Below are positions 5,228 to 39,526 of a stretch of DNA of 57,558 nt, one piece after another. The notes under the pieces are model-generated. The model made no database searches. It was given only the letters and a program-made list of their open reading frames with translations, and was not told the DNA's origin. The translations under genes were made by a program, and so were the position numbers. Position 1 is the stretch's first letter. The number at the start of each line of letters is the position of its first letter. The DNA is from a virus (taxonomy: Duplodnaviria > Caudoviricetes): IMG/VR virus record IMGVR_UViG_3300050343_000013, positions 1-57,558 of that record; one strand, written 5' to 3'.

Positions 5228-6278
5228 TAGCTTACATTTCCTGATACTACGCAGACAGTTCCGCTTATAAATAAAATTGTACAAACTCCTCTAGAAGCAA
5301 GCGTCAGACTGTTTACATCTCCGTCTGTTCCTGCAAGATACGCTGTTGAAATAGATAGGGTTATAGTACGATCACCTGATGTATTGTTGAATATAGAAAT
5401 TGCATCTCCTGCTGCAAAGGTACTGTTAGGAACAGTTACTGATCCACTTGATCCAATGCCGATAAAGTTTCCTACATCACCAACAACCAAAGTATAACTA
5501 GATGTTTTATCAGAACCAGATTGAGGAATAGCTCTTACTTTACCATCACCATCACTTACAGTACCACTAAAAGTTGGAGATGCAACAGGGGCTTTTGCGT
5601 TTAATTGTGTTTGTATTGCGGATGTTACACCATCTACATAATTAAGTTCAGCAGTTGTAGCAGTAACACCATCTAACAAATTTAATTCTGCTGCAGTAGA
5701 TGTAACCCATCTAGTATGTTTAGCTCCGCTGCTGTTGATGTAACCCCATCTAGTATGTTAAGTTCTGCTGCTGTAGAGCTTATAGCAACACCACCAATTT
5801 GTAAAGCTGTAGAAGCGTTAATGGTAGGTGCAGTTGCAGTACCTGTAAATGTAGGATCAGCAGTAGGAGCTTTTGCTGTTACAGAGTTTATGTCAGATGC
5901 ACTAACTGTTACACCGTCCATCTTGTTTAGCTCTGCAGCCGTAGCTGTTATTGCTGCACCACCTATCTGTAAGGCTGTTGAGGCATTGATTGTAGGGGCA
6001 GCTAGAGTTCCAGTAAACGTTGGACCTGCTACAGGAGCTTTGGTGTCCATCTGTGTCTGCACATTAGATGTAACACCATCGACATAGTTAAGCTCTGCAG
6101 TGGTAGCAGTGACGCCATCCATCAGGTTCAACTCTGCTGCAGTTGCTGTTACTCCATCTAATATGTTTATCTCTGCTGCAGTAGACGTAACACCTGTCAA
6201 TTCAGCAGGAGCTACTGCACCGTCAGCAAGTATATTTCCAGTAGCAACTACGTTTGCTAAATCTCTAGGTTTACCCAT
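5227..6278 (-). CDS. Tail fiber protein (frameshifted near 5680-5710)
   Basis: ORFs 5682-6278 and 5227-5679 share TATTAELNxxDGV repeats and join across an indel in the repeat region. Confidence 0.7.
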
Positions 6279-6297
6279 ATTGTCTATCCTCTATTTA

Positions 6298-6795
6298 TTA
6301 CGGCTTTGTAGGCCAGTCAGCATCTTCCAAATTAGGCCAGTTCTTATGCGTTGGCAAATCACGTAGAGCCTGTCTGTAGGTCTTCATGTTGTCTGCCATA
6401 GTAACATCCGACATAGCAGTCCAATCTGTCTCAGCTAGTTTGCTGTCTCGTGTACTACGATGATCTGCTGCAGTGTTAGCATCTAGTGTAGCCTGATAAG
6501 CTTTCTCGTGGTCTGCTTTCGTAGTTGTCTTACCATCTACAGTAGTATCAGCAAACATTTCTTTAGCTACGTACTTCTCAACCCAGTTGCCTTTGCTGTC
6601 TTGCTCTACACCATCACGTACACTTGTTTGATATGCACTAGTTGTAGCAGCAGGGCTTGCTAGTACTGGGTCAATGTTCATTGCGTCACAGACATTACTG
6701 TTCCACACTTTTGGAAGAGACATATTTTTAAAGGCTGCTCTCCACTCGCCTTGTGTTTTAACTTCACCTGTTTTTCTTTCACGATATTCTGACAT
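6298..6795 (-). CDS. Tail fiber assembly chaperone-like protein
   Basis: C-terminal RSTRDSKLAETDWT...YRQALRDLP...WPTKP motif typical of phage tail assembly chaperones. Confidence 0.75.
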   Translation of the reverse strand: MSEYRERKTGEVKTQGEWRAAFKNMSLPKVWNSNVCDAMNIDPVLASPAATTSAYQTSVRDGVEQDSKGNWVEKYVAKEMFADTTVDGKTTTKADHEKAYQATLDANTAADHRSTRDSKLAETDWTAMSDVTMADNMKTYRQALRDLPTHKNWPNLEDADWPTKP

Positions 6796-23492: not shown

Positions 23493-23501
23493 TGCTTTTC
23501 C

Positions 23502-24990
23502 TTAATATCCAAATGTTGGGTCTGCTGCTTGAAAACCTGACGTTGTGATGCAGGATCAAAATCAAATAAACTACTTCTAGGTCTTGTCATTATACCATAT
23601 CTTAATGCATCATACAAGTGGTCTTCTGCGTGTGTATCTACATCTTCTGGATTCTTTTTATCTAAAGGTATAGAAGGTAACTGAGATATAGATTAGAACA
23701 ATGTATTAAAAAATACTAGTCTTGGTTCTTCTGTAAACTCATCTACCTGCAATCTTCTGTGTAATTCGTTCTTACCTGCTACACGAGATCCTTTTGATCT
23801 ATCTGAAGGTCTCCACCTACATCCACGCAAAATCATTTGTTCTGCTAGAGCTTGGGCCAGTATCTCCACGTTTATGCCATAAGAGAACTATCAAGAACTC
23901 CATAACGTATTTTTCTCCTGCTTCAACATCTAATATCATATCAGCTAAATCAGTAGCTAGTACCTTTAGATACATACAGTTCTCTGATAAACAATTAGTT
24001 GTTCATCAGGTGCTACAGCAAACCAAACAACTCCAGTATAAGAACCATAACCATAGTCACATGCTCTAAACTTAACCCAGTTAGAAGGTATCTCAAAAGG
24101 TTCAACTACATGTATGTTCCTATTAAACTCAGGAAAAGCTGCACCTTCATTAATATCCCAATCACCTTCAAGTAGTTGTCTACGTTGATGCTCAGGTAAC
24201 GACAATAGATTGGCTTCGTATACATACCATCATCAGATAAGTAGGGATTATCAAACAAAGTGCAGGTATAAACCTACGTTTGAATAGAGGTTCACCTTCT
24301 TTACTGTGACCTTTAGGCCATTCAATCACATTCTCCTGTTTCAGGATCTGTAGCCCAGAACGAGCCTTATTAGGTACTTCAGGGTCAATAAAAGTTCTTC
24401 TTTACCCATTGATGACCTGGACCACCTGGGTTGCTAGTTGCTCTCATATGGAGAGGTAGACCTGATTGTTTAGTTGTACGTAACCGTGAACGCATATAGT
24501 TCCAAGGATAAGGTGTAGGCCATTGTGTAAGTTCATCAAAGCCAATCCAGTTAAAGGCTTGACCTTGGTATCTCATAACATCATCATCTCTGTCTAGGTA
24601 TGACATCCATAATGTAGCACCTGATGGAGCTACCCAAGTCTTATCTCTTTCCATAAACTTAATCCCAGGTATAGCTTTGGGATAAAGCTGTTTACTTACA
24701 GATATAAGTTCTCTTAACTCTTCTGTACTTCTACGTACAAGTAGCATCGTGCATGAGGATTGTTTAAGTACCGCACAGGGTCTGCAATCATAGCATAAGA
24801 CTTACCACCACCTGCTGCTCCACCATAAAGTACCTCTTGTTCTGTAGCTGCTAGGAAATCTGTCTGAGGGCCAGGGTTAGGCTCAAAGATAACTTCTTCT
24901 AGCCTTTTCTAAGTCTATTGGTTCAGGCTTTACGGTTGTGCTGGAACTAACTCCTTTGAGGACTCTTGTAACCGATACTTTGGGTTTCAA
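23502..24990 (-). CDS. terL: Terminase large subunit (frameshifted; start approximate)
   Basis: Walker A YGGAAGGGKS (~24800-24830), IGFDELTQW, ATSNPGGPGH, RACDYGY and DHLYDALRYG. Confidence 0.92.
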
Positions 24991-25357
24991 GCTTTTCCGC
25001 TTTTTGTAACGGCTTTCTTTGTACCTTTTCTGCGATAGTAAGCGTTGAGTTGAAGCTTCGTTCTTACGTTGTTGTTCAATTTTTACCCTTTGTATAAACC
25101 TACATGAGAGATATATCGTTCAGAACTGAGTACTAAGCCAAGCTAGCTACTTCTCTGTAGGCTGTATTGCTTTAAGGTACTTCTTAGCTTTTCGAACAAT
25201 TCTAACTCTTTTGGAATTGGTAGTAGTATATCACAATCGTGGGGTCTTGTCTATAGCCAAATGGTATAAGTCTACCAACTCTTACAACTGGTTGCCACTC
25301 ATATTCACCATCTACCGCTTCTGGCTTAGGTAATTGCCAAGTTCTATTCGTCTTCAT
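24946..25357 (-). CDS. Conserved DNA-binding protein upstream of terL (frameshifted; not in ORF track)
   Basis: Manual reading MKTNRTWQLPKP...GRLIPFGY...REVASWLSTQSERYISHVGL, an HTH-like segment. Confidence 0.55.
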
Positions 25358-25716
25358 CAGATTTCTGTGGTAATATAAATAAAGGACTCTAGCTGCTTTA
25401 TACCTCTACCTTTTCTGTTTTAACAAAACCAGCTACTATCTAAAACATCTTTTGCAGCTGTCATCTTTTCTTTATTACCTAAGTCTGTTGGATTGTTCAT
25501 AACCTCTAACATAGAGTATGCAGCTTTTACAGCTGATGAACTAATAAACTTCTTAGTTAGATCTGCAATTTCTTCTGCCAGAGACTCTGCAATAGCTTTT
25601 GTAGCTACCCCATCTGCATAACCTGCAAGTTTTCTAGCTGTAACTAGATTACCTCCAGCTTCTTCAAACAGTACGTCTAAGAACTTCTGTTGTTTTTCTG
25701 TTAAGTTTCTTGCCAT
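25344..25716 (-). CDS. Terminase small subunit-like protein (frameshift near the C-terminus)
   Basis: MARNLTEKQQKFLDVLF...ARKLAGY, a TerS-type HTH. Start at a TAATG overlap at 25716. Confidence 0.65.
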
Positions 25717-31774: not shown

Positions 31775-32029
31775 TTAGTATTCCCATTCCCGTTTTCTTC
31801 TGGGATCTAGAACATCCCTAGCCTTTAAATGGCCTTCAAGGTACATAGCTCTCTCTACCCTGTCCAGAGAGTACTTTATACCTGTATCATTTCTTATTTT
31901 TTCTCTTATGTAGAACACATCGGATCTAGGGATGTGCACTCTACGGAGTTTACCTTCGTCTTCTGAAGCTAATGCCCTGTAAAATTCCTCTACGACATTG
32001 TCAGAAGAGTACATTGCTGGTTTCTTCAT
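31775..32029 (-). CDS. Conserved hypothetical protein, first gene of the leftward arm
   Basis: VVEEFY...HIPRSDVFYIR motif. True start may be the Met at 32014, given the promoter position. Confidence 0.7.
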   Translation of the reverse strand: MKKPAMYSSDNVVEEFYRALASEDEGKLRRVHIPRSDVFYIREKIRNDTGIKYSLDRVERAMYLEGHLKARDVLDPRRKREWEY

Positions 32030-32030
32030 C

Positions 32031-32062
32031 TAGTTATACCTAATTTTTTGGGTAAAGTCAAC
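32031..32062 (-). promoter_or_regulatory. Sigma70-type promoter (leftward)
   Basis: Minus strand TTGACT-N17-TATAAC(TA). Confidence 0.75.
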
Positions 32063-32100
32063 ACTTTTTAAGTGGGACGACAAAAAAAGTTTAGATTTTG

Positions 32101-32184
32101 TCTTAAAGTATACTTAAAGTTACCTTAAGTATATAATAACTATTAATATATTAGTAATAATTAAAACTTAAAGTTACTTTAAGT
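32101..32184. repeat. ACTTWAAGT repeat block (left)
   Basis: Copies at 32101, 32112, 32122 (two degenerate), a 35-bp AT spacer, then 32166 and 32176. Confidence 0.8.
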
Positions 32185-32208
32185 ATTCTTTATGTAATAC
32201 TATAAGTA

Positions 32209-32237
32209 ATTATACAGTATATTGCAGCCGAAGTCAA
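32209..32237 (-). promoter_or_regulatory. Sigma70-type promoter (leftward)
   Basis: Minus strand TTGACT-N17-TATAAT. Confidence 0.75.
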
Positions 32238-32288
32238 CTACTATTTTTAATTTATTTTAAAATAGTTGTAATTAACATTTTATAATCA

Positions 32289-32304
32289 TTAAATTTGGGT
32301 TAAC
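32289..32304. promoter_or_regulatory. CtrA box
   Basis: TTAA-atttggg-TTAAC matches TTAA-N7-TTAAC. Short AT-rich motif, so a chance match is possible. Confidence 0.55.
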
Positions 32305-32305
32305 G

Positions 32306-32321
32306 TGCGACATTTTGTCCA
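32306..32321. promoter_or_regulatory. RegA/PrrA-like box
   Basis: TGCGAC-ATTTT-GTCCA, compared with GCGNC-N5-GNCGC. Confidence 0.35.
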
Positions 32322-32409
32322 GAACTAAAAAATCCCATCTCTGTCATTGGCTATATATACATACCACGCACCCCCACCTGGCGCATGCCCCCCTCCTGTT
32401 CAAAAACAT

Positions 32410-32481
32410 ATTCAATTTTCTGCATGGAACTATCATATTCACATATTCGAATATGTAACATATTGTTTTTATTGAATATGT
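32410..32481. promoter_or_regulatory. Three tandem ATTC-N8-GAAT-type palindromes (ArsR/SqrR-like)
   Basis: ATTC-N8-GCAT at 32410, CATATTC-N8-GAATATG at 32434 and ACATATTG-N8-GAATATGT at 32458. A fourth, perfect core lies at 32837-32852. Confidence 0.5.
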
Positions 32482-32507
32482 AATACAATACACTATTACA
32501 TTGCCGC

Positions 32508-32522
32508 TGTTATAGTATAACA
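32508..32522. promoter_or_regulatory. Zur box
   Basis: Perfect 7-1-7 palindrome TGTTATA-G-TATAACA, the core of the proteobacterial Zur operator. Confidence 0.65.
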
Positions 32523-32533
32523 TAACGTGATAC

Positions 32534-32550
32534 TTGCGAGTGATTCGCAA
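32534..32550. promoter_or_regulatory. Fur/Mur (alpha-type) box
   Basis: TTGCGA-GTGAT-TCGCAA palindrome. Confidence 0.55.
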
Positions 32551-32573
32551 TAGCAAAAGGTTTATGTACACTG

Positions 32574-32629
32574 GAACATAACGTGAACAAATAAACGAGC
32601 TGGTCACACAAAGAGAACAAAACGTGAAT
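32574..32629. promoter_or_regulatory. Two alphaproteobacterial LexA (SOS) boxes
   Basis: GAAC-ataacgt-GAAC (32574-32588) and GAAC-aaaacgt-GAAT (32615-32629). Confidence 0.7.
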
Positions 32630-32673
32630 ACTATCATGTTTCCTGTGGGTGAATAAATGTGCCTACTGAGAAA

Positions 32674-32690
32674 GTTTCCTCAGAGGAAAC
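32674..32690. promoter_or_regulatory. 8-1-8 palindromic operator, cognate protein unknown
   Basis: GTTTCCTC-A-GAGGAAAC, with a degenerate relative at 32638-32654. Confidence 0.5.
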
Positions 32691-33319
32691 GTAGCCGAAT
32701 ATAGGCTAAAATCTAAAAGTAAATTTAAATGTAGAGCCGATATAATAGCCATACAATCAGGTTAAATTTTAGCTAACAGCTGTACCCTAACCTTCGGGAA
32801 ACCTACTGGTGGCTCTTAGGTTTATTCTCAGGGTAAATTCAACTATTTGAATATGATATATTTCGACTATATTTGTGTCGTAAATAGACTATTTTGATGT
32901 CGTTTTTGTACTAAGAAAATTAATTTAATTTTTTTTTATATTTTTCCTTGTCTTTTAAAATATCGAGCTACCTTTAACTTATCGGGTGGTTGAAATCAGA
33001 GTGAGATTTCAGAGTTAGACCGCACCCACGCTATTTGACATAAATTCTTTAGGACTTCGGTAGCACCTAAAGCCCATAATATAAGACTACCCGTTTCTGG
33101 AAAGTGGAATTGACAACTCCAACTCTAGGAAATGCGCCAATAGGACTATCAAAGTATATATGCGATAATTGCTTTGATATTAGATCGTGTTTAAAAGGGG
33201 TCTTTAATCTGAAGGGGTAGGCATGTGATCAAAAAACGTAGCATGGAAGGGTAACAGTCTTAAATAACAATGCGGTATAGGCAAACTTTCTATATCAAGT
33301 GGTTATTTTGTTTGAGCCA

Positions 33320-33334
33320 TTAACTAAGGTTTAA
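33320..33334. promoter_or_regulatory. CtrA box upstream of the first early gene
   Basis: TTAA-ctaaggt-TTAA. Confidence 0.45.
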
Positions 33335-33482
33335 ACAGTATGGATATTCACCAATAAGTTAAAAAGTTTTAGGGCATTAAGTTTTATACTTGATGCCCTA
33401 TGTTATACTTTTAATGTACATTTTACAGTGTGCATTAGCGGTATAACATTAGGTTATATCGACAACGTAAACTCATATAAAA

Positions 33483-34025
33483 TTGGAGATTAAAATGAGT
33501 ATTTCAAACATAGTAAACAACTTCTCACGTAACTTAGGTAATGGTCAAAAAATGGGAGAGGCATTACTTGACGCTATCAATCATGCAATCAAGACTGGTG
33601 ATACTTCTATTATCTCAGTTCTATTTATGAAAGTTAATGACAAAAAAGATAGCAACGCATTATCTGGATTAACTGCTACTGTAAGAGCCGTTTATATCGG
33701 TGCAAACATCACTACTGATAAAAAGACAAATCGCACCATTGTTAAAACCAAAAACGCTACATTATCAAATAGTGCAGTTGAAGTATTAAATCAATTGGTA
33801 GTAGATAGCGTATCAATGCGAGGCAACAAATGGGCTAAAGCTTTCAATACTGAGACTGAGCAAAAACCAGTGGATGTCAAAAAACGTGCGGAAAAATTCG
33901 TAAAAGATAATCCAGAGCTAGTTAATGCTTACATTCACGCACTACAGCAAGCTCAAAAGGTTGCACAAAATGCGGCTAGTCTAGAAAAAGTTGCCACTGA
34001 TGCAGCTCTACTTGCTGCTCAGTAA
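33483..34025 (+). CDS. Early hypothetical protein
   Basis: First rightward ORF. GGAG RBS favours the start MSISN at 33495. Confidence 0.75.
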   Translation: MEIKMSISNIVNNFSRNLGNGQKMGEALLDAINHAIKTGDTSIISVLFMKVNDKKDSNALSGLTATVRAVYIGANITTDKKTNRTIVKTKNATLSNSAVEVLNQLVVDSVSMRGNKWAKAFNTETEQKPVDVKKRAEKFVKDNPELVNAYIHALQQAQKVAQNAASLEKVATDAALLAAQ

Positions 34026-34040
34026 TGTTATAACATAACA
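34026..34040. promoter_or_regulatory. Second Zur-type box
   Basis: TGTTATAACATAACA (reverse complement TGTTATGTTATAACA), immediately after the stop codon. Confidence 0.55.
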
Positions 34041-34433: not shown

Positions 34434-34533
34434 TGGTAAAAAGTGGGTGCTATATGGTAATGATGGTAAAGTTATTGTCATTACACGCATCCGATCAATT
34501 TGTGAAAGGATAATGCAAAATGTTAATGGATGA
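34414..34533 (+). CDS. 39-aa hypothetical protein (not in ORF track)
   Basis: GAGG RBS. MMKIIYNGKKWVLYGNDGKVIVITRIRSICERIMQNVNG fills the gap. Confidence 0.55.
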   Translation: MMKIIYNGKKWVLYGNDGKVIVITRIRSICERIMQNVNG

Positions 34534-34867
34534 ATTACGTGCGACAGGAAAGTTTCTGTCAAGTAAACGTATACAAAAGCATGGTAACGTGCCTAGTATG
34601 GATAAGTTGAGGCGTAGAAATGCACTGAAGTTTGCTTATGCCTCAGTGCGTGAGGCGGCTCGGTCTGTCAATGAGTACGTGCTTGAAGGTACTTACTTTG
34701 ATGGTAATGATACCAAAACTGTAGAGATGTCTGGTGAAAGTCTGTCTGATATTGTGTCAGCAATACAACAGTCTGATCCAAACTTTGGTCTGTATGATAT
34801 GTCATTCGATGGTGGATGGTTTGTCGCAGACTATAACGTGACTGCACAAGTACGCAGTTTAATATAA
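34520..34867 (+). CDS. Early hypothetical protein
   Basis: 115-aa ORF in the operon. Confidence 0.65.
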   Translation: MLMDELRATGKFLSSKRIQKHGNVPSMDKLRRRNALKFAYASVREAARSVNEYVLEGTYFDGNDTKTVEMSGESLSDIVSAIQQSDPNFGLYDMSFDGGWFVADYNVTAQVRSLI

Positions 34868-34889: not shown

Positions 34890-35234
34890 ATGGGTAATTC
34901 AAAAGGTAATCGTTTTAGTGTAGATGTTCAAATCGCAGCGTGTCAGATGTACATGGGCAATCCTTCTATAACTCAGGATGAAGTTTCTGATCACTTTGGT
35001 ATGAGTAAGTATACTCTTAGTAAGTGGCTCAGAAAGCATGGTTTTTCTTTGAAAGTTGCAAAGCGTCTACCTATGCCTACTAGAGCTGATAGAGTTGCTA
35101 GGAACTTCAAGGTGTTAAAGACTGAGCATAACAAGGTCAAGGCTGAGTTGATGCAGCTTAAGCAAGCTCAACAGCTTGACAATACATGGCTTAGTGACAA
35201 GCTCAATGACTATGGCACAAGCTATAATCAATAG
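34890..35234 (+). CDS. HTH DNA-binding protein with a coiled-coil tail
   Basis: AGGAGG RBS and the HTH TQDEVSDHFGMSKYTLSKWLRK. Confidence 0.7.
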   Translation: MGNSKGNRFSVDVQIAACQMYMGNPSITQDEVSDHFGMSKYTLSKWLRKHGFSLKVAKRLPMPTRADRVARNFKVLKTEHNKVKAELMQLKQAQQLDNTWLSDKLNDYGTSYNQ

Positions 35235-35249
35235 GAGTAACTAATACAA

Positions 35250-35855
35250 ATGAATATATTTGCACTGTCTCGGTGTCCGATGCAGTCAGCATGGTGGTTA
35301 GATGACATCCGTAAGAACAAGATGATTCTTGAGTCTGCACAGATGTTGTCTACCGCAGTGCGTTTACTCAGCGGAACACTAATCGAAGTCAGGGTTAAGC
35401 ATGGGTCAGGTACACGACTCAAACAACACTGGCTTCTTCCTAATGAGGATATAGGTGAGATAGAAGAACCTGTCTCACTATTTAGTAATCTATTCTCAGA
35501 TAGCATTTACAAGGTGGCTTATGCCAATCACCCTTGTACAATCTGGGCTAGGCAATCACGAGATAACTTCAAGTGGTTGCTTAGTCATATGTCTCACCTA
35601 TGGTTACAGAAAGGTGGTGAGCATGGGTCAGCTAGACTTATCCCACAATTGGATGAGTATAGTTCTACTGGATATTTTCCTAATGAGGAGTTGACACCTT
35701 TTGCCAACTGTGCTAGGAATTTAGAACGTGGAGTTGATTATTCAGAACATGCAGATACACATGAAGCGTATCGACTATATATGAATGATCGTTGGAAAGA
35801 AACTAACATTACCTTGACATGGCGTTGGGGTAGAGAGCCAGAATGGAGGAACTAG
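35250..35855 (+). CDS. Pyrimidine-dimer DNA glycosylase (DenV/PDG)-like protein
   Basis: MNIF...KMILESAQMLST...YKVAYANHPCTIWAR motif. Confidence 0.75.
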   Translation: MNIFALSRCPMQSAWWLDDIRKNKMILESAQMLSTAVRLLSGTLIEVRVKHGSGTRLKQHWLLPNEDIGEIEEPVSLFSNLFSDSIYKVAYANHPCTIWARQSRDNFKWLLSHMSHLWLQKGGEHGSARLIPQLDEYSSTGYFPNEELTPFANCARNLERGVDYSEHADTHEAYRLYMNDRWKETNITLTWRWGREPEWRN

Positions 35856-38500: not shown

Positions 38501-38580
38501 ACTTTAAGTAACTTAAAGTTTTTTAATATTTATAGTAGTAATATTAAATACTTTAAGTATAACTATAGGTTCCTTAATGT
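38501..38580. repeat. ACTTWAAGT repeat block (right), mirror of 32101-32184
   Basis: Copies at 38501 and 38511, a 30-bp AT spacer, then 38550 and degenerate copies at 38562 and 38572. Contains GTATAACTA at 38557. Confidence 0.75.
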
Positions 38581-38591
38581 AGGAGGTTCCT

Positions 38592-38645
38592 ATGGAAATA
38601 GATGACCCACATGATGACTGCTCACATTGGATAGGAAAGATATGA
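38592..38645 (+). CDS. 17-aa leader peptide coupled to the integrase
   Basis: AGGAGG at 38581, then MEIDDPHDDCSHWIGKI. The stop overlaps the integrase ATG (ATGA). Confidence 0.55.
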   Translation: MEIDDPHDDCSHWIGKI

Positions 38646-39526
38646 AATTTAATAAAGCTGTAGACAAGTATCTCCACACTCGTCAGTTCAACTCTCTCTC
38701 TAGTTCCTCGCAAAAGAACTACGAGTGTTGTCTGTTAGCTTTCTGTCGTATGTCTGTTATGGGAAGAAAACTTGGTAATGTAAACTTAGATAAGTTGAGT
38801 ATAGCCATGTGCTCTGAGATGTACGATACGTGGGAGCTGGAAACATCCACCTCTAATGCAAACCATAACGCTAGGGTGTTTTCAGTTCTCATTAATTATC
38901 TTATTGCAATGGAGATAATGATGCTTAACCCAATGGCTAGAGTTAAGAAACGCCACAGTGAACCTCGCTCTGTCGTCTGGACACATGATCAAGTACTATC
39001 ATTTCTAGACGTAGCATTCACAAAGTTTGAGTGGCGTAACATCGGACTGATTGTCCTGATGTGTTATGAGTGGGGTCAACGCCCAATAGATATTCGTAAT
39101 CTAACTTGGAATGATGTTGACCTTGAGAAGAGAGTTGTAGAAATCAAACAGACTAAACGTGGAGCTGAGGTAGAATTACCAATACCTGACAACTTAGTTG
39201 GTATGCTCACTGAACAGAAAGGTGACTGGGACTTCCAAGAATATGTAGTACCTCACCACAGAGCCTCAGATGGTGCGTACAGACCGCTAACAGTTCACCA
39301 GATGTCTGCACTACTGGCAGAGGTTAAAGCTCTTGCAGGGCTTCCTGATGATCTGAGGGTGGGTGATCTACGTAAGACTGCCATTGTTCAGATGATTGAG
39401 GGTGAGGTAGATCACTTGGCTATTCAATCTGTGACTGGTCATAAACATGTTAGTAGTTTAAATCCGTACAATAAATTCAGTTTAAAAACCGCAAAGTCTG
39501 CATTGGAGAGGAGACAAAGGCAATGA
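38642..39526 (+). CDS. int: Tyrosine recombinase/integrase
   Basis: Catalytic R (GQRPIDI), K (KQTKRG), GDLRKT (HxxR variant), TGH and Y (LNPY), with an N-terminal SAM-like domain. Confidence 0.9.
   Translation: MKFNKAVDKYLHTRQFNSLSSSSQKNYECCLLAFCRMSVMGRKLGNVNLDKLSIAMCSEMYDTWELETSTSNANHNARVFSVLINYLIAMEIMMLNPMARVKKRHSEPRSVVWTHDQVLSFLDVAFTKFEWRNIGLIVLMCYEWGQRPIDIRNLTWNDVDLEKRVVEIKQTKRGAEVELPIPDNLVGMLTEQKGDWDFQEYVVPHHRASDGAYRPLTVHQMSALLAEVKALAGLPDDLRVGDLRKTAIVQMIEGEVDHLAIQSVTGHKHVSSLNPYNKFSLKTAKSALERRQRQ

What the first reader, a model, noticed from the sequence alone, without database searches (positions are those of the whole stretch)
32289..32852. Dense non-coding array of host transcription-factor operators (sensor panel or decoy sponge)
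Seen, nearly back-to-back in ~560 bp with no credible ORF: TTAA-N7-TTAAC (32289), TGCGAC-N5-GTCC (32306), ATTC-N8-GAAT-type boxes (32410, 32437, 32462, 32837), TGTAATA-N8-TATTACA (32479), TGTTATA-N-TATAACA (32508), TTGCGA-N5-TCGCAA (32534), GAAC-N7-GAAC/T twice (32574, 32615), GTTTCCTC-N-GAGGAAAC (32674) and GTTAA-N7-CTAAC (32761). Known (consensus recalled, not scored): these fit CtrA, RegA/PrrA, SqrR/ArsR, Zur, Fur/Mur and alpha-LexA operators. Most are not positioned over an obvious promoter. Inference: a protein-free system in which replicating phage DNA titrates host repressors (derepressing Zn/Fe/Mn uptake, SOS and sulfur genes), or a multi-input switch reading host state in place of a CI repressor. 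This is the best candidate for a novel system in the window.
Basis: partly seen in the sequence, partly recalled or inferred. Interest (0 to 1): 0.9.

Follow-up and report, generated by a model that had tools for sequence, protein, structure and literature searches.

The report
Operator-dense control region of a roseophage
This non-coding stretch is the main control region of a marine Roseobacter phage, packed with real protein-binding sites, some of which look like sites for the host's DNA-damage, sulfide and zinc regulators, so the phage may read the state of its host.

Summary
The window is a CRP-9-type roseophage (primase 64% identical to CRP-9). The finding sits in a 1.45-kb ORF-free gap (32030-33482) between the leftward structural/lysis arm and the rightward early arm.

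All the listed boxes are present, two only approximately. Short inverted repeats are about 8 times denser than in shuffles (18 against 2.25; 0 of 500 shuffles reach it).

Across 37 related contigs, three box classes are concentrated in this gap:
- GAAC-N7-GAAC (alpha-LexA type): 21 of 37 contigs, 0.73/kb against 0.023/kb outside.
- ATTC-N8-GAAT (SqrR type): 13 of 37 contigs.
- TGTTATA-N-TATAACA (Zur-box core): 9 of 37 contigs.

No phage early gene co-varies with these boxes, and no phage ArsR or LexA homologue was found. The CtrA-like, RegA-like and several single palindromes are not conserved.

The left end of the finding is a ~100-nt DNA element shared with HMO-2011-type phages.

Nothing supports a decoy sponge. 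The best reading is a transcriptional control hub, possibly wired to host regulators.

First-reader notes on two other genomes describe similar arrays (unchecked).

The parts
32030..33482 (.). Whole ORF-free divergent gap between the first leftward gene (31775-32029, minus strand) and the first rightward early gene (33483/33495-34025). It lies at the GC-skew minimum. CRP-9, CRP-2 and HMO-2011 have an equivalent gap.
32209..32237 (-). Best sigma-70-like promoter of the gap, TTGACT-17-TATAAT (11 of 12), pointing into the structural/lysis arm. It lies just left of the finding.
   Evidence: The block is conserved in the window clade.
32303..32400 (+). Conserved ~100-nt core element: GGTTAAC / GGTGCGACATTTTGTCC module, A-run, TCTCTGTCATTGG, ATATATAC, ACCCCC, CCCATGC. 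It is the most conserved non-coding DNA of the phage group. It reads as a DNA-level signal, not a structured RNA.
   Evidence: nhmmer finds it in 22 of the 82 loci searched, CRP-9 included, in CRP-2 (E=9e-12) and HMO-2011 (E=8e-7), and in 14 of 80 primase-anchored loci. RNAalifold gives 0 pairs on 21 sequences.
32407..32480 (.). Cluster of CATATTC/GAATATG 7-mers forming SqrR-type dyads: a half-site at 32407; a perfect CATATTC-N8-GAATATG at 32434-32455, with a nested 14-bp palindrome at 32442-32455; and CATATTG-N8-GAATATG at 32459-32480.
   Evidence: The 32437 box is kept in 5 of 7 relatives. It shares CATATTCACA with the R. capsulatus rcc1451 SqrR operator probe.
32479..32500 (.). TGTAATA-N8-TATTACA palindrome, kept only in the three closest relatives (3 of 7).
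32508..32522 (.). TGTTATA-G-TATAACA, a perfect 7-1-7 palindrome equal to the core of the proteobacterial Zur box. It also reads as two back-to-back TATAAC -10-like hexamers.
   Evidence: Kept in 4 of 7 relatives. The same 7-1-7 occurs in 19 of 171 sequences held, including cobaviruses ICBM1 and ICBM2, and in 9 of 37 gaps.
32534..32550 (.). TTGCGA-N5-TCGCAA palindrome. In relatives one arm is changed (0 of 6 exact), but the motif occurs twice in L007 and L022.
32574..32629 (+). Two alpha-LexA-type direct repeats, GAACATAACGTGAAC (32574-32588) and GAACAAAACGTGAAT (32615-32629). They belong to a 3-copy family, with the third copy TAACATAACGTGAT at 32518.
   Evidence: The 32615 box is kept in 5 of 6 relatives.
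32640..32852 (.). Right part of the finding. It is poorly conserved: the GTTTCCTC-A-GAGGAAAC hairpin (32674) and GTTAA-N7-CTAAC (32761) are not kept in relatives. One more SqrR-type box, AAATTC-N8-GAATATG, sits at 32834-32855 and is kept in 2 of 5.
33027..33400 (+). Outside the finding but in the same gap. RNA-library contigs of one metatranscriptome cover 33027-33335 at depth 4-17. A 13-pair hairpin follows at 33370-33400. It could be a leader or a small RNA, but the evidence is weak.
   Evidence: fold z = -2.6

Best explanation
The 564 nt are the operator-rich centre of the phage's main control region. This is the divergent gap from which the structural/lysis arm is transcribed leftward and the early/replication arm rightward, in a CRP-9-type roseophage that carries an integrase.

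From left to right the gap holds:
(1) A ~100-nt sequence-conserved DNA signal shared with HMO-2011-type phages. Its function is unknown; a packaging, terminus or arm-control site are guesses.
(2) A block of dyad operators. The recurrent ones are CATATTC-N8-GAATATG (SqrR/BigR-type) and TGTTATA-N-TATAACA (Zur-box core).
(3) Two to three GAAC-N7-GAAC direct repeats with an 11-bp period (alpha-LexA type).
(4) A poorly conserved spacer.

Proposed mechanism: dimeric repressors occupy these sites and gate early transcription. For the three recurrent classes the most economical binders are the host's own LexA, SqrR-like and Zur-like repressors. If so, DNA damage, persulfide stress or zinc shortage would relieve repression. 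The remaining palindromes are clade-specific sites for phage-encoded regulators.

Shown: the sites exist, are denser than chance, sit at conserved positions in relatives, keep their arms while their spacers drift, and match published consensus sequences.
Inferred: that proteins bind them, which proteins, and the direction of control.
For: Position and context:
- The gap lies between divergent arms at the GC-skew minimum.
- The endolysin/holin arm is on the left. An HTH gene and an integrase are on the right.
- CRP-9, CRP-2 and HMO-2011 have the same architecture.

Dyad density: 18 against 2.25, with 0 of 500 shuffles reaching it.

Enrichment across 37 contigs that carry the core element:
- GAAC-N7-GAAC: 29 sites in 21 of 37 contigs within 1.3 kb of the core (0.73/kb), against 11 sites outside (0.023/kb).
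- ATTC-N8-GAAT: 27 sites in 13 of 37 contigs (0.68/kb against 0.014/kb).
- TGTTATA-N-TATAACA: 9 sites in 9 of 37 contigs (0.23/kb against 0.006/kb).
- Reversed-motif controls: 0 sites in the gaps.

Unbiased ranking of 5096 spaced 4-mer dyads over 13 lineages: GAAC-N7-GAAC is 12th (7 of 13 lineages) and ATTC-N8-GAAT is 43rd (5 of 13).

In 16 complete early arms, both motifs lie almost only in the first 1.3 kb: 11 and 14 sites there, against 0 and 2 in the remaining ~9 kb of each.

The arms are fixed and the spacers vary: 20 distinct GAAC sites and 23 distinct ATTC sites. The ATTC consensus is ATATTCA-N6-TGAATAT.

Published consensus sequences:
- Alpha-LexA: GTTCN7GTTC / GAACN7GAAC (passages).
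- SqrR: ATTC-N8-GAAT, with a 22-bp two-fold operator and the probe GACAT-ATTC-ACAACTCG-GAAT-GTAA (passages).
- Zur box: GAAATGTTATA-N-TATAACATTTC (passage).

No phage-encoded binder is apparent. No protein cluster between the core and the primase tracks either box class in 16 genomes. The window and CRP-9 share almost no early proteins yet share both classes. No ArsR-type or LexA/S24 domain appears in the 48 window ORFs scanned against Pfam, out of 93 ORFs of >=80 aa, nor in the earlier scans.
Against: - No binding or expression data exist.
- Promoter-like sites are not more frequent than in shuffles, and I could not place the boxes over a conserved promoter. The first rightward gene starts ~870 nt beyond the GAAC boxes.
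- Within the single window the consensus counts are not above chance.
- Many relatives lack one or all classes: 16 of 37 have no GAAC box and 24 of 37 have no ATTC box. CRP-2, which infects the same strain as CRP-9, has no GAAC box, and neither do HMO-2011 or the cobavirus ends sampled.
- The 37 contigs are not independent; several are close relatives.
- GAAC sites often come as three 11-bp repeats with an A-rich extension, which also fits iterons of a replication or packaging protein.
- The Zur-type palindrome matches only the 15-bp core. The flanks of the 23-bp box fit at 2 of the 4 right-flank positions and at none on the left. It can also be read as two -10 hexamers.
- I could not obtain any Rhodobacteraceae genome to build host matrices.
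- The Pfam scan covered 48 of 93 ORFs, and a novel fold would be missed.
Confidence: 0.6

Rival explanations
1. All the operators are sites for phage-encoded regulators, a lambda-like switch region. The likeness to host LexA, SqrR and Zur sites would be coincidence or mimicry of no consequence.
For: - Operator arrays differ between clades and track phage lineage: TAGTTTAAC-N-TTAAACTA, 3-5 copies in CRP-9, L029, L037, L077-L079 and L084; TGCAAA-N-CTGCAAAG repeats in CRP-2; CATATTC in the window clade.
- CRP-9 and CRP-2 share a host strain but not their arrays.
- The early arm encodes an HTH protein (34890-35234) and a PHROG 'DNA binding protein' (35250-35855).
- The first leftward gene is a strongly conserved small helical protein of unknown function.
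Against: - No early protein cluster co-varies with the ATTC or GAAC boxes in 16 genomes.
- The window and CRP-9 share these boxes but almost no early genes.
- Three separate classes each match a published host consensus, the SqrR class including its flanks.
- No ArsR or LexA domain was found in the phage.
Confidence: 0.27
2. The stretch is mainly a DNA-transaction site. The conserved core would be the physical genome end (the left edge of a direct terminal repeat or a pac site). The 11-bp GAAC repeats and AT-rich palindromes would be origin or packaging iterons, as at the left end of T7-like phages and cobaviruses.
For: - Cobaviruses, the source of this phage's replication module according to the abstract of PMC8528129, have annotated terminal repeats of 159-172 bp at exactly this kind of position, followed by ~580 nt of non-coding DNA.
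- Their repeat starts ...AAAATCTTTAGTCGC|ATTGTACATACAGCAGGCTACCCCC. By eye this resembles the window's ...AAAAATCCCATCTCTGTC|ATTGGCTATATATACATACCACGCACCCCC.
- ICBM2 also has TGTTATA-C-TATAACA shortly after its repeat, and ICBM1 has it inside its repeat.
- The core travels with the HMO-2011-type packaging arm.
- 11 of the 22 loci with the core have their contig end within 1.2 kb to its right; one of them is the CRP-9 record, whose end was set by its depositors.
- Other first-reader notes call such arrays 'terminal' (unchecked).
Against: - The likeness to the cobavirus end is not significant (best E = 0.12 in 11.7 kb).
- 0 of 65 contigs whose left end lies within 10 kb upstream of the primase start at the core.
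- Contig ends to the right of the core are scattered, even among close relatives: 380, 537 and 708 nt.
- The window and five long relatives are classed 'linear, no end repeats'.
- The large terminase is HMO-2011-type, and no cobavirus appears in the 30 best records listed.
- Direct repeats are not enriched in the stretch.
Confidence: 0.1
3. Decoy sponge: replicating phage DNA soaks up host repressors and so derepresses host regulons, with no role in phage transcription.
For: Only indirect points favour it. Host-type boxes are present and not visibly tied to promoters, and copy number would rise with replication (inference).
Against: - There are only 2-4 sites per class per genome.
- Many close relatives lack the sites.
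- The sites keep a fixed position and order next to the early arm, as expected for cis control.
- No computation here can address titration.
Confidence: 0.03

Closest known systems
Temperate phages whose lytic switch is held or tuned by host LexA (CTXphi, GIL01, coliphage 186 tum; recalled from my own knowledge, no call)
   Same: SOS-box-type sites sit in the control region of an integrase-carrying phage that lacks an obvious CI repressor with an S24 protease domain.
   Different: The box here is the alphaproteobacterial direct repeat GAAC-N7-GAAC, often in 2-3 tandem 11-bp units. It lies far (~870 nt) from the first early gene. Binding is not shown, and CRP-9, which has no integrase in its early arm, carries the boxes too.
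Host control of the gene transfer agents of Rhodobacterales by LexA, CtrA and SqrR (SqrR: abstract of PMC9143464 seen in the listing; LexA and CtrA recalled)
   Same: A phage-derived element of the same host order is wired to the same host regulators. The SqrR box ATTC-N8-GAAT is the motif found here.
   Different: That element is domesticated and chromosomal, under host control. This is a free, widespread marine phage, and the CtrA-type box does not hold up here.
Left-end non-coding region of cobaviruses (Lentibacter phages ICBM1 and ICBM2) and of T7-like podoviruses
   Same: Several hundred non-coding bases lie between the last late gene and the first early gene, and they hold C-runs, short repeats and the TGTTATA-N-TATAACA palindrome.
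   Different: A terminal repeat is annotated there in cobaviruses. No end could be shown here. The packaging genes here are HMO-2011-type.
Lambda-type OR/OL operator arrays
   Same: Several dyad operators are packed between divergent transcription units.
   Different: There are several unrelated operator classes rather than repeats of one. No cognate repressor gene has been identified.

Membership tests
Alphaproteobacterial LexA (SOS) box | Direct repeat GAAC-N7-GAAC / GTTC-N7-GTTC | tested here: met
   32574 is exact. 32615 reads GAAC-N7-GAAT. The consensus comes from passages in PMC9578287, PMC3091678 and a bioRxiv paper.
Alphaproteobacterial LexA (SOS) box | More frequent than chance and conserved in relatives | tested here: met
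   It is not above chance within the window alone. It is present in 21 of 37 related contigs at 0.73/kb against 0.023/kb outside, and the reversed control gives 0. It ranks 12th of 5096 dyads.
Alphaproteobacterial LexA (SOS) box | Overlaps the promoter of the regulated unit | tested here: inconclusive
   No conserved promoter was found at the boxes.
Alphaproteobacterial LexA (SOS) box | Bound by host LexA | not testable with these tools
   No host genome handle could be obtained. EMSA or ChIP is needed.
SqrR/BigR-type (ArsR family) operator | ATTC-N8-GAAT inside a ~22-bp two-fold symmetric site | tested here: met
   32434-32455 is CATATTC-N8-GAATATG. The consensus of 23 distinct sites is ATATTCA-N6-TGAATAT. 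The definition comes from passages.
SqrR/BigR-type (ArsR family) operator | Flanks like a characterised operator | tested here: met
   The window shares CATATTCACA with the R. capsulatus rcc1451 probe GACATATTCACAACTCGGAATGTAA. This is a direct reading and rests on a single reference operator.
SqrR/BigR-type (ArsR family) operator | A cognate ArsR-type repressor is available (host or phage) | tested here: inconclusive
   No HTH_5 or HTH_20 domain was found in 48 of the 93 window ORFs. The host could not be examined.
Proteobacterial Zur box | 23-bp GAAATGTTATA-N-TATAACATTTC | tested here: inconclusive
   The core matches 15 of 15 at 32508-32522, but the flanks (ccgc ... taac) fit poorly: 2 of the 4 right-flank positions and none on the left. 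The reference motif comes from gamma- and beta-proteobacteria; no alpha-specific matrix was in hand.
CtrA box | TTAA-N7-TTAAC, conserved and above chance | tested here: not met
   It occurs once in the window against 1.59 expected. It is kept in 0 of 7 relatives and has 0 sites in the 37 gaps. The consensus is recalled, not taken from a call.
Direct terminal repeat / physical genome end | Molecules begin or end at the site; the repeat is present at both ends | tested here: not met
   0 of 65 contigs start at the core. The records are classed linear without end repeats. The likeness to the cobavirus repeat start gives E = 0.12. Raw virion reads were not available.
Structured non-coding RNA | Rfam match or a conserved secondary structure | tested here: not met
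   Rfam gives no match at the gathering score, and only chance-level matches at E<=10. RNAalifold gives 0 pairs on the core. No tRNA was found.

The most novel reading that the evidence does not exclude
CRP-9-type and some HMO-2011-type roseophages, an abundant group of marine phages, may carry a conserved 'sensor panel' in their control region. Host LexA (DNA damage), a host SqrR/BigR-type persulfide sensor and possibly host Zur (zinc) would bind it directly. The phage would then decide on early transcription or induction by reading several host stress states at once, without a dedicated CI-type repressor for these inputs.
Probability: 0.25. Interest if true: 0.8.

Novelty: new variant of a known kind. 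Interest (0 to 1): 0.55.

Why it matters
Phages that use host LexA are known. A phage control region carrying conserved sites of the sulfide-sensor (SqrR) type, alongside SOS-type and Zur-type sites, is not described in the papers my searches listed. One search (roseophage + LexA) listed 8 papers, none on CRP-9-type or HMO-2011-type phages by title or abstract. One search (SqrR + bacteriophage) listed only gene-transfer-agent and general papers. The CRP-9 paper contains none of the words promoter, intergenic, noncoding or terminal repeat.

Roseobacters are central to marine sulfur cycling, so a phage that reads host persulfide state would link viral decisions to that chemistry.

The idea can be tested now, because CRP-9, CRP-13, CRP-2 and their host strain are in culture.

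Whatever its function, the ~100-nt core element is a new landmark for the control region of HMO-2011-type and CRP-9-type genomes.

Tried and rejected
- **Known RNA families and tRNAs:** none found.
- **DNA similarity of the gap to 50,697 phage records:** no match for 31900-33600. For 32280-32420 there were only chance-level hits.
- **Structured-RNA reading of the core:** 0 consensus pairs.
- **Coding reading:** the 97-aa ORF is not conserved.
- **Physical-end reading:**
  - The profile of the core against cobavirus ends gave a best E of 0.12.
  - 0 of 65 contigs start at the core.
  - My spaced pattern was badly designed and found only chance matches. That call's useful output was that 5 long relatives are classed linear.
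- **Candidate regulator:**
  - The first leftward gene (P0001) has no family in PHROGs, Pfam or NCBIfam. Its fold model had pLDDT 59.9, too poor to search with, so no fold search was run.
  - The 115-aa protein (34520-34867) looked linked to CATATTC sites in 4 genomes, but this did not hold in 16 genomes.
- **Host matrices:**
  - I tried to reach a Rhodobacteraceae genome through the integrase. It returned 4 unrelated genomes.
  - The one proteobacterial MAG among them has a different motif upstream of its lexA, so no host matrices were built.
  - The control genomes give no handles.
- **RNA evidence (contigs only, and DNA may be present in the libraries):**
  - One metatranscriptome has contigs on 33027-33335 at depth 4-17.
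  - Inside the finding, one low-depth contig lies on 32350-32502 and a short piece on 32811-32856.
  - The parts without cover say nothing.
- **Promoters by eye:** several were considered (ATTACA-16-TATAAC at 32495-32521; hexamers overlapping the CATATTC dyads) and dropped, because they are not conserved in relatives.
- **Literature on the ends of HMO-2011-type phages:** the passages read did not bear on it.
- **Supplements:** supplementary files of papers were closed. The supplementary tables of the CRP-9 paper and of the SqrR and LexA papers (operator lists) might bear on the motif comparisons.
Full report
**What the window is.** The 57.6-kb window is a complete or nearly complete virus record with about 38% G+C.
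- Its large-terminase fragment is 93% identical to CRP-9 and 72% identical to HMO-2011 and CRP-2.
- This matches the published description of CRP-9-type phages: a cobavirus-like replication module joined to an HMO-2011-type structural module (abstract of PMC8528129).
- Genes run leftward from 32029 (holin-like protein and endolysin) and rightward from about 33483 (HTH protein, DNA-binding protein, integrase, ThyX, primase).
- The finding (32289-32852) lies inside the 1.45-kb ORF-free gap between these arms, at the GC-skew minimum.
- CRP-9, CRP-2 and HMO-2011 have an equivalent gap.

**Check of the observation.**
- The stretch holds 18 perfect short inverted repeats (arm >=6), against 2.25 +- 1.78 in 500 dinucleotide shuffles. 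None of the 500 reaches 18, and only 2 of 203 equal-sized genome windows do.
- Short direct repeats are not clearly enriched.
- Counted one by one over the whole window, the named consensus sequences are not above chance. The signal is their clustering.
- CATATTC/GAATATG has 6 of its 13 copies in these 564 nt. This shows that the several 'ATTC-N8-GAAT-type' boxes are one family, CATATTC-N8-GAATATG.
- There is no credible gene. The 97-aa ORF has no family and is truncated or absent in 7 relatives.
- There is no Rfam family and no tRNA.
- Promoter-like sites are no more frequent than in shuffles. The one strong site (TTGACT-17-TATAAT, 32237 to 32209) points leftward and lies outside the finding.

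**Relatives.** I fetched 80 IMG/VR loci through the endolysin and 80 through the primase, plus named phage records.
- Only close relatives align over the gap: 70-88% identity for L007, L008, L009, L012, L014, L022 and L028.
- One piece, window 32303-32400, is recognisable far more widely. It is found in 22 of the 82 loci first searched, in 14 of the 80 primase loci, in CRP-9, and in the HMO-2011-type phages CRP-2 (E=9e-12) and HMO-2011 (E=8e-7).
- Its invariant parts are TCTCTGTCATTG, an ATATATAC stretch, a C-run and CCCATGC. A GGTTAAC-containing module precedes them.
- It has no consensus RNA structure (0 pairs on 21 sequences), so I read it as a DNA-level signal.

**Is the core a genome end?** Cobaviruses have annotated terminal repeats at the same kind of place. 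By eye, the start of their repeat resembles the core.
- The likeness is not significant (E=0.12).
- None of the 65 contigs that end within 10 kb upstream of the primase starts at the core.
- No end repeats are recorded for the window or for five long relatives.
- I keep 'genome end or packaging site' as a minority reading. The function of the core is unknown.

**Which boxes survive comparison (7 relatives of the window clade).**

| Box | Kept in relatives |
|---|---|
| TGCGAC-N5-GTCC | 6 of 7 |
| ATTC-N8-GAAT at 32437 | 5 of 7 |
| GAAC box at 32615 | 5 of 6 |
| TGTTATA-N-TATAACA | 4 of 7 |
| TGTAATA-N8-TATTACA | 3 of 7 (closest relatives only) |
| ATTC box at 32837 | 2 of 5 |
| Box at 32462 | 1 of 7 |
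| TTAA-N7-TTAAC | 0 of 7 |
| GAAC box at 32574, at its aligned place | 0 of 7 |
| TTGCGA-N5-TCGCAA (exact) | 0 of 6 |
| GTTTCCTC-N-GAGGAAAC | 0 of 6 |
| GTTAA-N7-CTAAC | 0 of 6 |

For the 32574 box, L007, L008 and L012 have a GAAC-N7-GAAC box directly upstream of the second box instead.

**Wider comparison.**
- Over 37 contigs that carry the core:
  - GAAC-N7-GAAC occurs 29 times in 21 contigs within 1.3 kb of the core (0.73/kb), against 0.023/kb elsewhere.
  - ATTC-N8-GAAT occurs 27 times in 13 contigs (0.68/kb against 0.014/kb).
  - TGTTATA-N-TATAACA occurs 9 times in 9 contigs (0.23/kb against 0.006/kb).
  - The same motifs read backwards give 0 sites in the gaps.
- In an unbiased ranking of 5096 spaced 4-mer dyads by the number of lineages with a hit, GAAC-N7-GAAC is 12th (7 of 13 lineages), ATTC-N8-GAAT is 43rd (5 of 13) and the CtrA-like TTAA-N7-TTAA is 423rd.
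- The arms are constant while the spacers differ between phages. There are 20 and 23 distinct sites; the ATTC class has the consensus ATATTCA-N6-TGAATAT.
- The 37 contigs include close relatives, so these counts overstate the number of independent events.

**Who binds?**
- The three recurrent classes coincide with published operators:
  - the alphaproteobacterial LexA box;
  - the R. capsulatus SqrR box, whose characterised probe GACATATTCACAACTCGGAATGTAA shares CATATTCACA with window 32434;
  - the core of the proteobacterial Zur box (core only, the flanks do not fit).
- In 16 complete early arms, no protein cluster between the core and the primase tracks the presence of ATTC or GAAC boxes.
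- The window and CRP-9 share both classes but almost no early genes.
- Pfam finds no ArsR-type or LexA/S24 domain in the 48 window ORFs scanned.
- This favours host proteins, or a phage protein of unrecognised fold, for these classes.
- Other arrays are clearly lineage-specific: TAGTTTAAC-N-TTAAACTA in CRP-9 and six other lineages, TGCAAA-type repeats in CRP-2, and TGTGATCACA in several.
- CRP-9 and CRP-2 infect the same strain with different arrays, and CRP-2 has no GAAC box.
- The region is therefore best seen as a mixed control hub, not a panel made only of host operators.

**Mechanism and its limits.** I propose that repressor dimers on these sites gate early transcription. I also propose that LexA-type, SqrR-type and perhaps Zur-type sites let the phage respond to host DNA damage, persulfide and zinc state.
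- 15 of the 16 early arms examined carry the integrase, so the phage is probably temperate.
- What is shown is sequence-level only.
- I could not tie the boxes to a conserved promoter.
- The first early gene is about 870 nt downstream of the GAAC boxes.
- The tandem 11-bp GAAC units also fit iterons.
- I could not build host matrices, because no Rhodobacteraceae genome could be reached.
- The decoy-sponge idea has no support and could not be tested.

**Verdict.**
- It is a real, conserved, operator-dense control region.
- It is a new variant of a known kind (phage switches that use host regulators). The SqrR-type sites are the least expected element.
- First-reader notes on two other genomes (e1-6317694, e1-6300017) describe the same kind of array. 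They are unchecked and add no independent support.

Noticed in passing
window 23500-25400 (minus strand); ORF 24385-24747: The large terminase gene appears fragmented. The 120-aa ORF matches only residues ~200-304 of terminase profiles and is 93% identical to part of the 461-aa CRP-9 TerL. This suggests frameshifts, either assembly errors or a broken gene.
   Followed up: partly
window 38627-39526 (+): A tyrosine integrase (PHROG 1, Pfam Phage_integrase). Homologues are present in 15 of the 16 complete early arms of relatives, but not in the isolate CRP-9. Most members of this group may therefore be temperate.
   Followed up: partly
window 32101-32184 and 38501-38558; L092 (HMO-2011) about 6220-6350: ACTTWAAGT palindromes cluster upstream of the leftward arm and again just upstream of the integrase: 6 of the 7 genome copies. 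HMO-2011 has similar ACTTAAGT blocks at the matching place. An earlier first-reader note (e1-6306708) also flags them.
   Followed up: partly
window 33027-33400 (+): Contigs of one metatranscriptome cover 33027-33335 at depth 4-17, against 1-14 on neighbouring bins. A 13-pair hairpin follows at 33370-33400. The stretch folds better than shuffles (z = -2.6). It may be a leader or a small RNA; DNA carry-over is not excluded.
   Followed up: partly
L004 11440-11560 (CRP-9) and L029, L037, L077-L079, L084: Arrays of 3-5 copies of the palindrome TAGTTTAAC-N-TTAAACTA occupy the same position that the CATATTC sites occupy in the window clade. This looks like a lineage-specific operator set with an unknown binder.
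   Followed up: partly
window 34025-34036; also the gaps of L009, L014, L022, L028, L106, L151: The 12-bp palindrome ATGTTATAACAT recurs: 14 copies in the loci held. One copy lies directly after the stop of the first early gene of the window. It is related to the 7-1-7 palindrome at 32508 but has no central base.
   Followed up: no
window 31775-32029 (minus strand): The first gene of the leftward arm encodes an 84-aa helical protein. It is very strongly conserved across lineages (44 invariant positions in 11 sequences) and has no family. The fold model was poor (pLDDT 59.9).
   Followed up: partly
window 32030-32065 (minus strand): TTGACT-17-TATAAC ends 3 nt before the annotated ATG at 32029. 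This suggests either a leaderless message or a wrong start codon.
   Followed up: no
L007, L009, L028, L077-L079, L084; CRP-2 (L091 about 2320): TGTGATCACA palindromes recur in the gaps of several lineages. In L077-L079 and L084 they flank the GAAC repeats. In the window the matching site is degenerate.
   Followed up: no
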